From Octopus sinensis (lineage: Eukaryota): a stretch of 64,000 nt of DNA. The notes under the pieces were generated by a model. That model was not told the DNA's origin, searched no databases, and was given only the letters and a program-made list of their open reading frames with translations. This document shows, one piece after another, positions 10,882 through 55,750 of the stretch. Numbering within the stretch: position 1 is the first letter of the stretch; the number at the start of each line of letters is the position of its first letter. The stretch is taken from the NCBI RefSeq assembly GCF_006345805.1, contig NC_042997.1, positions 39,308,001 to 39,372,000 on the forward strand, in the 5' to 3' direction. Made by a program: the position numbers and the translations under genes.

Positions 10882-11029
10882 TCAGTTGGTGAGAGTATTC
10901 CAAGCTTGATATAAACGAGTTGTAATGGCCTCTAGAACTGGTTGGGTGCAATGAATAGCCGTGGAACCAGTTTTCAGAGAAGGTGCCAAAGATAGCAGAG
11001 ATTCCAGAGTGGTAGAAGTATCATTCAAC
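10882..11029 (-). CDS. Exon 12 (terminal coding exon)
   Basis: Acceptor ttttctcag|G; ends ..ITTRLYQAWNTLTN-TGA, like GCPII AAFTVQAAAETLSEVA-stop. Confidence 0.8.

Positions 11030-55750: not shown

What the first reader, a model, noticed from the sequence alone, without database searches (positions are those of the whole stretch)
10882..55750. Catalytically dead GCPII-family membrane protein with transferrin-receptor-like features in an invertebrate
Seen: in exon 7 the GCPII zinc ligand His377 (GGHRD) reads GTQRL, Asp387 is replaced by a Ser-rich insert, the Glu424/Glu425 motif (SWDAEE) reads SWGTVT, and the YPLYH553 segment has no counterpart at the exon 9/10 junction. The frame stays open over 12 exons. 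Known: vertebrate TfR1 has GAQR and GTALLLKL at these positions (here GTQR, STAMLLEL), while NAALADL2 has ASSTA and SWGG (here SSTA, SWGT); both are pseudo-peptidases. Inference: a retained non-enzymatic surface receptor, either a deep NAALADL2/TfR orthologue or an independent inactivation; a candidate uptake receptor for transferrin or another haemolymph protein, in a group where TfR orthologues are not generally recognised.
Basis: partly seen in the sequence, partly recalled or inferred. Interest (0 to 1): 0.75.

Follow-up and report, generated by a model that had tools for sequence, protein, structure and literature searches.

The report
Mollusc-wide catalytically dead GCPII paralogue

Summary
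Observation confirmed. Twelve AG/GT exons on the minus strand give 876 aa, identical to RefSeq XP_036355328.1 (Octopus sinensis, auto-named NAALADL1). Intron-less contigs in 4 of 4 runs bridge exons 5-12 with no extra exon. His377, Asp387, Glu424, Glu425 and His553 are lost; Asp453 is displaced or lost. The fold is GCPII/TfR and selection is purifying. The protein belongs to one clade spanning cephalopods, bivalves and gastropods (SH-aLRT 99-100). None of 17 members keeps His377, Glu424 or His553, and 16 of 17 share a His-His motif absent from 111 other homologues. The 'TfR-like' motifs are not diagnostic: the Gln is octopod-only, and SWG and TA occur in intact enzymes. The TfR RGD, the second calcium Glu and an IRE are absent. 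Grouping with vertebrate TfR appears only when active-site columns are kept; AU rejects no placement. The intron layout differs from both other octopus paralogues and matches NAALADL2 as I recall it (unverified; no NAALADL2 sequence could be fetched). Dead M28B paralogues are common, including a second one in this genome. Best reading: an old non-enzymatic trafficking or binding protein; transferrin uptake is unsupported.

The parts
55095..55750 (-). Exon 1 (aa 1-219): 126-aa cytoplasmic tail, transmembrane helix, stalk, first ectodomain helices
55577..55594 (-). Acidic dileucine motif E53-x-x-x-L57-L58, predicted sorting signal
   Evidence: 7 of 7 cephalopod tails, 0 of 10 other mollusc tails
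55316..55372 (-). Predicted transmembrane helix, aa 127-145 (type II topology inferred), with juxtamembrane Cys121
   Evidence: hydropathy 3.08; helix 125-152 in the model; Cys in 12 of 13 clade rows
44766..45090 (-). Exon 2 (aa 219-327), protease-like domain into apical domain
38428..38550 (-). Exon 3 (aa 328-368), PA/apical domain
33910..34042 (-). Exon 4 (aa 369-413), PA/apical domain; the loop that carries Asn257 in GCPII is shortened
27653..27826 (-). Exon 5 (aa 413-471); RefSeq isoform X2 lacks its first six codons
24306..24404 (-). Exon 6 (aa 471-504); begins at a phase-1 intron that the two other octopus paralogues lack
21343..21596 (-). Exon 7 (aa 504-588): degenerate zinc site; Gln512 for His377, Ser-rich insert over Asp387, SWGTVTG over Glu424/Glu425
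19648..19782 (-). Exon 8 (aa 589-633): YVDLMD at the Asp453 strand (19746-19729)
15960..16145 (-). Exon 9 (aa 634-695); Arg534/Arg536 positions read Gln/Thr
15154..15358 (-). Exon 10 (aa 696-764): no His553 segment; start of helical domain
15305..15331 (-). Clade-specific D705-x-x-H708-H709-F-R-Y-H713 motif
   Evidence: HH in 16 of 17 mollusc rows, 0 of 111 others
11939..12131 (-). Exon 11 (aa 764-828), helical domain; no RGD
10882..11029 (-). Exon 12 coding part (aa 828-876, stop), shortened helical domain without the Lys699/Tyr700 loop
10500..10881 (-). 3' untranslated region (minimum; contigs continue up to 498 letters beyond 10500); no IRE found

Best explanation
The gene encodes a single-pass membrane protein with the predicted GCPII/transferrin-receptor fold that has lost its zinc ligands and catalytic glutamate, belongs to one clade found in cephalopods, bivalves and gastropods, and likely acts as a non-enzymatic binding or sorting protein of the NAALADL2 type that would cycle between the cell surface and endosomes. 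Shown: gene structure, splicing of exons 5-12, loss of the site, purifying selection, the mollusc clade, an intact paralogue elsewhere in the genome, and a distinct intron layout. Inferred: type II topology; dimer by family likeness; adaptor-driven traffic through the acidic dileucine (cephalopods); a ligand surface rebuilt away from the old pocket, with the His708-His709 motif as a possible pH or metal sensor; orthology to NAALADL2, which rests on recalled human exon sizes. The ligand is not identified; transferrin is not favoured.
For: Model identical to RefSeq. Intron-less contigs in 4 of 4 runs. Fold: GCPII Z 31.9, rmsd 3.7, 561 aligned; TfR1 Z 30.5, rmsd 3.6, 550 aligned (model pLDDT 70). 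His377, Glu424, His553 in 0 of 17 mollusc rows; pocket residues Arg210, Asn257, Tyr552, Lys699, Tyr700 in 0 of 11. 11 synonymous to 1 non-synonymous among 12 listed of 20 differences in exons 7-11 against run X7; at worst dN/dS about 0.23. Clade support 99-100 in four mixture-model trees. Intact paralogue on contig C15 keeps all six residues. Both other paralogues have introns near GCPII residues 307, 340, 409 and 511 that this gene lacks; it alone has a phase-1 intron near 335. Recalled, unverified: human NAALADL2 has the same run of phases (2,0,0,1,1,1,0,0,0) and similar exon sizes, while FOLH1 and TFRC have the extra introns. Dileucine in 7 of 7 cephalopod tails.
Against: No NAALADL2 sequence or exon table could be fetched, so the orthology is untested. 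I saw no NAALADL2-like protein, by recalled motifs, among the best 150 of 669 hits, and none of the named clade members is annotated as NAALADL2. The last two introns differ from recalled NAALADL2. Intron loss happens in these genes: C15 lacks one intron that C10 has. The dileucine is absent from 10 of 10 non-cephalopod tails, 3 of which have a YxxPhi match instead. Loss of Glu424 is common: 27 of 99 other full-length rows in a fast alignment. No localisation, binding or activity data exist.
Confidence: 0.5

Rival explanations
1. Same non-enzymatic protein, but an independent inactivation of a GCPII duplicate in the mollusc or lophotrochozoan ancestor, unrelated to NAALADL2 or TfR.
For: Without active-site columns the join to other dead lineages falls below 80; FastTree keeps TfR apart; a second, unrelated paralogue in this genome lacks Glu424, Glu425 and His553; other dead lineages sit among active enzymes; the His-His motif is mollusc-only.
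Against: Origin from the active FOLH1-like group is the worst of five trees, though not rejected (AU p 0.06); the intron layout is unlike both active-type paralogues; His202 is shared with the Capitella, Glandiceps and Patiria dead proteins (9 of 111 non-mollusc rows).
Confidence: 0.3
2. An invertebrate orthologue of TfR1/TfR2 that takes up iron-loaded transferrin or ferritin from haemolymph.
For: With site columns kept, molluscs, TfR and echinoderm/hemichordate dead proteins group at 98, 89 and 92 (with a copepod row); mollusc+TfR is not rejected (AU p 0.40); three transferrin-family loci exist in the genome; Atlas feature hits include TfR clusters at 0.96-0.97.
Against: The grouping depends on degenerate site columns. 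RGD in 0 of 11 mollusc rows (its role in binding is recalled). Glu436 in 2 of 17 against 10 of 12 TfR-type rows. No IRE in 1.9 kb after the stop. Atlas scores for GCPII-like clusters are the same within 0.01. One transferrin locus ends in a hydrophobic tail like a GPI-anchored melanotransferrin (inference). Recalled TFRC introns follow the FOLH1 pattern.
Confidence: 0.1
3. An intracellular sorting adaptor or chaperone, like yeast Tre1/Tre2, that recognises other membrane proteins and sends them to lysosomes rather than binding a soluble ligand.
For: Precedent: Tre1/2 with Bsd2 route Smf1 to the vacuole (PMC8050425, passages). An acidic dileucine also fits endosomal or lysosome-related residence (established knowledge).
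Against: No PPxY motif in 17 of 17 mollusc tails.
Confidence: 0.07
4. The protein keeps or has rebuilt a metal site and some hydrolase activity from nearby acidic and His residues.
For: Asp606, Asp579, Asp670 and His672 are kept in cephalopods; Asp387, Glu425 and Asp453 persist in about half of the other molluscs.
Against: His377, Glu424 and His553 in 0 of 17; the residues kept differ between classes; substrate-pocket loops are deleted.
Confidence: 0.03

Closest known systems
Glutamate carboxypeptidase II / NAALAD2 / NAALADL1 (MEROPS M28B enzymes)
   Same: Three-domain fold (Z 31-32), type II membrane layout, PA domain, most intron positions; best PDB sequence hit E 3e-26.
   Different: Zinc ligands, Glu424, pocket residues and Glu436 lost; 126-aa tail; RefSeq name 'aminopeptidase NAALADL1' is a misleading automatic label.
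NAALADL2 (vertebrate, predicted inactive)
   Same: Predicted inactive M28B membrane protein with an endocytic signal (stated in bioRxiv 10.1101/871186); recalled exon phases and sizes match window exons 2-9.
   Different: No sequence compared here; recalled C-terminal introns differ; His-His motif is mollusc-specific in my sample.
Transferrin receptors TfR1/TfR2
   Same: Fold (Z 30.5), dead site, loss of the Lys699/Tyr700 loop, juxtamembrane Cys, Gln at His377 in octopods.
   Different: Outside the vertebrate TfR clade in all trees; no RGD, no Glu436, no N-terminal YxRF-type motif, no IRE; 26% identity over 413 columns to gecko TfR1, the same as to a FOLH1-like protein.
Yeast Tre1/Tre2 transferrin-receptor-like adaptors
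   Same: Same superfamily used for membrane traffic rather than catalysis (PMC8050425).
   Different: No PPxY motif; no sign of orthology tested.

Membership tests
M28B structural family (GCPII/TfR fold) | Protease-like, apical and helical domains | tested here: met
   Z 31.9, rmsd 3.7, 561 aligned, model 197-876 on chain 55-748; Foldseek E 3e-36
M28B structural family (GCPII/TfR fold) | Single N-proximal transmembrane helix | tested here: met
   aa 127-145 by hydropathy and model; topology itself inferred
GCPII/NAALAD2/NAALADL1 enzymes | Zinc ligands His377, Asp387, Glu425, His553 (PMC10794815) | tested here: not met
GCPII/NAALAD2/NAALADL1 enzymes | Zinc ligand Asp453 | tested here: inconclusive
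GCPII/NAALAD2/NAALADL1 enzymes | Proton-shuttle Glu424 | tested here: not met
   0 of 17 mollusc rows
GCPII/NAALAD2/NAALADL1 enzymes | Measured peptidase activity | not testable with these tools
   needs assay
TfR1/TfR2 | Placement inside the vertebrate TfR clade | tested here: not met
   TfR rows form their own clade at 96-100 without molluscs
TfR1/TfR2 | Sister relation to TfR (pro-orthology) | tested here: inconclusive
   81 with Capitella, open; AU p 0.40
TfR1/TfR2 | RGD-type helical-domain motif (role recalled) | tested here: not met
   0 of 11 mollusc rows; GD in 5 of 6 and RGD in 3 of 6 TfR rows
TfR1/TfR2 | Glu pair of the calcium site (433/436; role recalled) | tested here: not met
   Lys at 436; Glu in 2 of 17 mollusc rows, 10 of 12 TfR-type rows
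TfR1/TfR2 | Tyrosine internalisation motif near the N-terminus | tested here: inconclusive
   YxxPhi matches at 74 and 101 in octopods only; dileucine instead in 7 of 7 cephalopods
TfR1 | IREs in the 3' UTR | tested here: not met
   no Rfam IRE in 8000-11100, no C-bulge stem-loop in 9000-10881; the true 3' end is not mapped
TfR1/TfR2 | Transferrin binding and uptake; homodimer | not testable with these tools
NAALADL2 | Orthology by tree | not tested
   no NAALADL2 sequence among fetched proteins
NAALADL2 | Shared intron layout | tested here: inconclusive
   octopus side measured; human side recalled only, paper look-ups failed
Tre1/Tre2 | Cytoplasmic PPxY motif | tested here: not met
   0 of 17 mollusc tails

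The most novel reading that the evidence does not exclude
The mollusc clade, with the dead annelid, echinoderm and hemichordate proteins, is the invertebrate branch of a single bilaterian pseudo-peptidase lineage that also gave NAALADL2 and the transferrin receptors. It is an endocytic receptor for a haemolymph metal carrier (ferritin, transferrin or haemocyanin), with its His-His motif as a pH or metal release switch. TfR-type uptake would then predate vertebrates.
Probability: 0.12. Interest if true: 0.8.

Novelty: new variant of a known kind. Interest (0 to 1): 0.42.

Why it matters
A dead enzyme kept across three mollusc classes has a job, yet databases label its members as aminopeptidase, GCPII-like, TfR1-like or TfR2-like, and my ten paper searches found no description of the clade. 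Papers on iron uptake in clams and sponges assign the TfR role to 'NAALAD2' without comparing paralogues in the passages I saw; this clade is the missing candidate to test. If it is the NAALADL2 orthologue, that disease-linked orphan dates to the bilaterian ancestor and becomes testable in snails and oysters. The interest is limited because loss of catalysis is frequent in this family and no ligand is known.

Tried and rejected
No RNA holder listed by record: run kinds are guessed, so the contigs show an intron-less form, not expression level or tissue. Extra exons restoring ligands: none between exons 5 and 12 in the four contigs and no phase-0 candidate between exons 9 and 10; contigs drop rare variants. 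Pseudogene or neutral decay: rejected (orthologues). Word-index searches found only 2, 4 and 4 proteins, so the clade's range is a floor. No NAALADL2 sequence was obtained. ESM Atlas did not separate TfR from GCPII clusters. The mixture-model AU test and the bootstrap tree did not finish; the AU test reported used 33 of 50 rows, LG+F+G4 and a fast search in which the free tree scored 5 log units below a constrained one. The first exon(s) of the C15 paralogue were not found in 70 kb upstream. Pfam TFR_dimer hit 1 of 15 clade rows weakly; fold search covers that domain, so this is divergence, not absence. Paper ids not held. PMC12340633 and PMC2607021 gave nothing useful on RGD or exon sizes. 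Earlier scan findings: nothing relevant. A note of mine said all orthologues lack Glu425; one search corrects this (8 of 17 keep it).

Full report
1. Observation. The gene lies on the minus strand in 12 exons from 55750 to 10882; all 11 introns are GT-AG and the 2631-nt frame gives 876 aa. The translation is identical to P0001, RefSeq XP_036355328.1 of Octopus sinensis, named 'aminopeptidase NAALADL1 isoform X1'. One contig in each of 4 of 4 runs (four studies, two organism labels, kind guessed as RNA for three and unknown for one) runs from the 3' region through exon 5 without introns. Exons 9 and 10 adjoin directly, and the unlisted gap between exons 5 and 7 is 99 letters in all four, the size of exon 6. 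Junctions of exons 1-4 rest on the RefSeq model and on colinear orthologues.

2. Active site. The zinc ligands of human GCPII are His377, Asp387, Glu425, Asp453 and His553, with Glu424 as proton shuttle (PMC10794815, passages). P0040 carries all six at the same numbers. The octopus protein has Gln512 for His377, no Asp from 505 to 578, no Glu at 424/425 and no His553 segment; Asp453 is Met605 or, with a one-residue shift, Asp606. Arg210, Asn257, Tyr552, Lys699 and Tyr700 are absent in 11 of 11 mollusc rows. The AlphaFold2 model (mean pLDDT 70.4, pTM 0.72, 98 sequences) matches GCPII at Z 31.9 (rmsd 3.7, 561 aligned) and TfR1 at Z 30.5 (rmsd 3.6, 550 aligned) over residues about 195-876. The fold is kept; it does not tell the families apart.

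3. Selection. Run X7 differs from the window at 20 places in the exon 7-11 blocks; 12 are listed, 11 synonymous and 1 not. With 757 non-synonymous and 212 synonymous sites, counting all 8 unlisted as non-synonymous gives about 0.23. Orthologues are 71% (Argonauta) and 42% (decapodiform-type) identical.

4. Range. A phmmer scan of 1.84 billion representatives gave 669 hits at E 0.001; the best 150 were returned. The top ones are named from Argonauta, Solemya, Pinctada, Haliotis, Arion, Biomphalaria, Saccostrea, Mactra and Mytilus, and one Logan protein clusters with a cuttlefish record. Their automatic names vary: NAALADL1, GCPII-like, TfR1-like, TfR2-like. They form one clade at SH-aLRT 99-100 in four LG+C20 trees of 66, 50, 50 and 32 rows. 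His377, Glu424 and His553 are kept in 0 of 17 rows, Asp387 and Glu425 in 8 of 17 each, so the loss predates the split of the three classes and cephalopods have decayed furthest. His708-His709 is present in 16 of 17 mollusc rows and 0 of 111 other full-length rows; His202 in 16 of 16 rows that cover it and 9 of 111 others, among them Capitella, Glandiceps and Patiria.

5. Gln at His377 occurs in the 4 octopod rows only; decapodiform-type rows have Arg and other molluscs Ser, Pro, Thr or Glu, so the match to TfR's GAQR is convergent. Trp-Gly at 421-422 is found in 26 of 62 and Thr-Ala at 392-393 in 44 of 62 intact homologues. The Ser-rich insert is octopod-only. RGD is absent from 11 of 11 mollusc rows, Glu436 is kept in 2 of 17 against 10 of 12 TfR-type rows, and no IRE was found after the stop. 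The roles of RGD and Glu436 are recalled.

6. Deep placement. FastTree on 132 rows keeps TfR apart from the mollusc clade. LG+C20 on 66 rows joins molluscs, Capitella and TfR at 81, and these with echinoderm and hemichordate dead proteins at 98. On one 50-row alignment that larger group has 89 with all 615 columns and is open, under 80, when 112 site and loop columns are dropped, where the long Capitella row moves to TfR. AU on 33 of those rows rejects none of five trees: molluscs with echinoderm/hemichordate proteins best, with TfR p 0.40, with the active FOLH1-like group p 0.06. Shared degeneration may therefore drive the grouping. NAALADL2 was not in the sample.

7. Paralogues and introns. 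The genome holds at least two more M28B genes (a floor). The one on C15 keeps all six residues. The one on C10 keeps His377, Asp387 and Asp453 but lacks Glu424, Glu425 and His553: a second, separate inactivation. Both have introns near GCPII residues 307, 340, 409 and 511 that the window gene lacks, and neither has its phase-1 intron near 335; introns at 172, 214, 276, 369 and 437 are common to all three. From recall, not from any call: human NAALADL2 has exons of 274, 120, 151, 144, 93, 206, 120 and 147 nt with phases 2,0,0,1,1,1,0,0,0, matching window exons 2-9 (325, 123, 133, 174, 99, 254, 135, 186 nt; same phases), whereas FOLH1 and TFRC carry the extra introns. Only FOLH1's count of 19 exons was confirmed (PMC9123266, passage). 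This is the main lead towards NAALADL2 and it is unverified.

8. Likely working. Residues 127-145 form the only strong membrane helix, after a 126-aa tail predicted disordered. An acidic dileucine is aligned in 7 of 7 cephalopod tails (three are one genus) and absent from 10 of 10 other mollusc tails, which are 30-53 aa long; 3 of them have YxxPhi matches. Such motifs bind AP adaptors (established knowledge). With catalysis covered by the C15 paralogue, the simplest reading is a binding or sorting protein that cycles through endosomes. Its ligand is unknown. Three transferrin-family loci exist; the C15 one ends like a GPI-anchored melanotransferrin (inference). A preprint speculates, without data in the passage seen, that NAALADL2 is a melanotransferrin receptor (10.1101/871186).

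9. Literature and novelty. Ten searches listed no paper on this clade; subscription papers are mostly not searched, Lambert and Mitchell 2007 was seen only as a citation, and no supplements were read. Seen as passages: PMC12896564 (razor clam NAALAD2 proposed for iron uptake), PMC7034838 (sponge NAALAD2 with a 3' IRE), PMC9768917 and PMC10794815 (trematode and nematode orthologues with intact sites), PMC8050425 (Tre1/2), PMC10094261 (IGF-1R as mollusc ferritin receptor), PMC7429505, PMC2607021, PMC12340633. Dead M28B proteins are a known kind, and 27 of 99 other full-length rows lack Glu424 in a fast alignment. The mollusc clade is an undescribed variant.

10. Verdict. Observation confirmed; interpretation partly supported. 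Interest 0.42; new variant of a known kind.

Noticed in passing
G000:C10:102250684-102369503 (+), loci L043-L055: A second M28B paralogue that keeps His377, Asp387 and Asp453 but has Thr-Lys at Glu424/Glu425 and Asn at His553; its best matches are unnamed P0083, P0108 and P0127, a separate predicted-inactive lineage.
   Followed up: partly
G000:C15:4325794-4526202 (+), loci L016-L035, L006: Intact GCPII-type paralogue with all six catalytic residues, spread over at least 200 kb.
   Followed up: partly
G000:C15:22949446-22958331 (-), C25:1192446-1196791 (+), C14:16948336-16960512 (+): Three transferrin-family loci; the C15 one ends in a hydrophobic tail like a GPI signal. Iron ligands not checked.
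   Followed up: partly
window 27808-27826 (-): Alternative acceptor 18 nt into exon 5; RefSeq isoform X2 of two Octopus species lacks these six codons.
   Followed up: partly
window 8763-9869 (-): 368-codon open frame of a LINE-type reverse transcriptase (RVT_1 E 6e-24), same strand, about 1 kb after the stop codon.
   Followed up: partly
window 59268-60740: Inverted repeat with arms of about 570 nt, 97-99% complementary, around 332 nt, upstream of the gene; the frame at 60042-60455 looks by eye like a GIY-YIG endonuclease of Penelope-like elements (recalled; no Pfam hit).
   Followed up: partly
window 40897-42306 (+) and 17555-18234 (+): Broken reverse-transcriptase fragments in intron 2 (RVT_1 E 4.5e-06 for one) and mariner-like fragments in intron 8 (by eye, no Pfam hit).
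   Followed up: no
proteins P0007, P0008, P0012, P0013, P0016, P0019, tails; window 55620-55645 (-): A Trp-x-x-Val/Ile-type motif ahead of the acidic stretch recurs in cephalopod, bivalve and abalone tails, while two snail or slug tails have Tyr-x-Pro-Val near the N-terminus; possibly a variant sorting signal.
   Followed up: no
protein P0010 (Solemya, KAL5004027.1): The 1178-aa record repeats the C-terminal half, probably an annotation or assembly duplication; left out of the mixture-model trees.
   Followed up: no
proteins P0018, P0025, P0027, P0035, P0065, P0084, P0135, P0154: Further predicted-inactive M28B proteins in a hemichordate, two echinoderms, an insect, a copepod, an annelid and unnamed sources.
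   Followed up: partly
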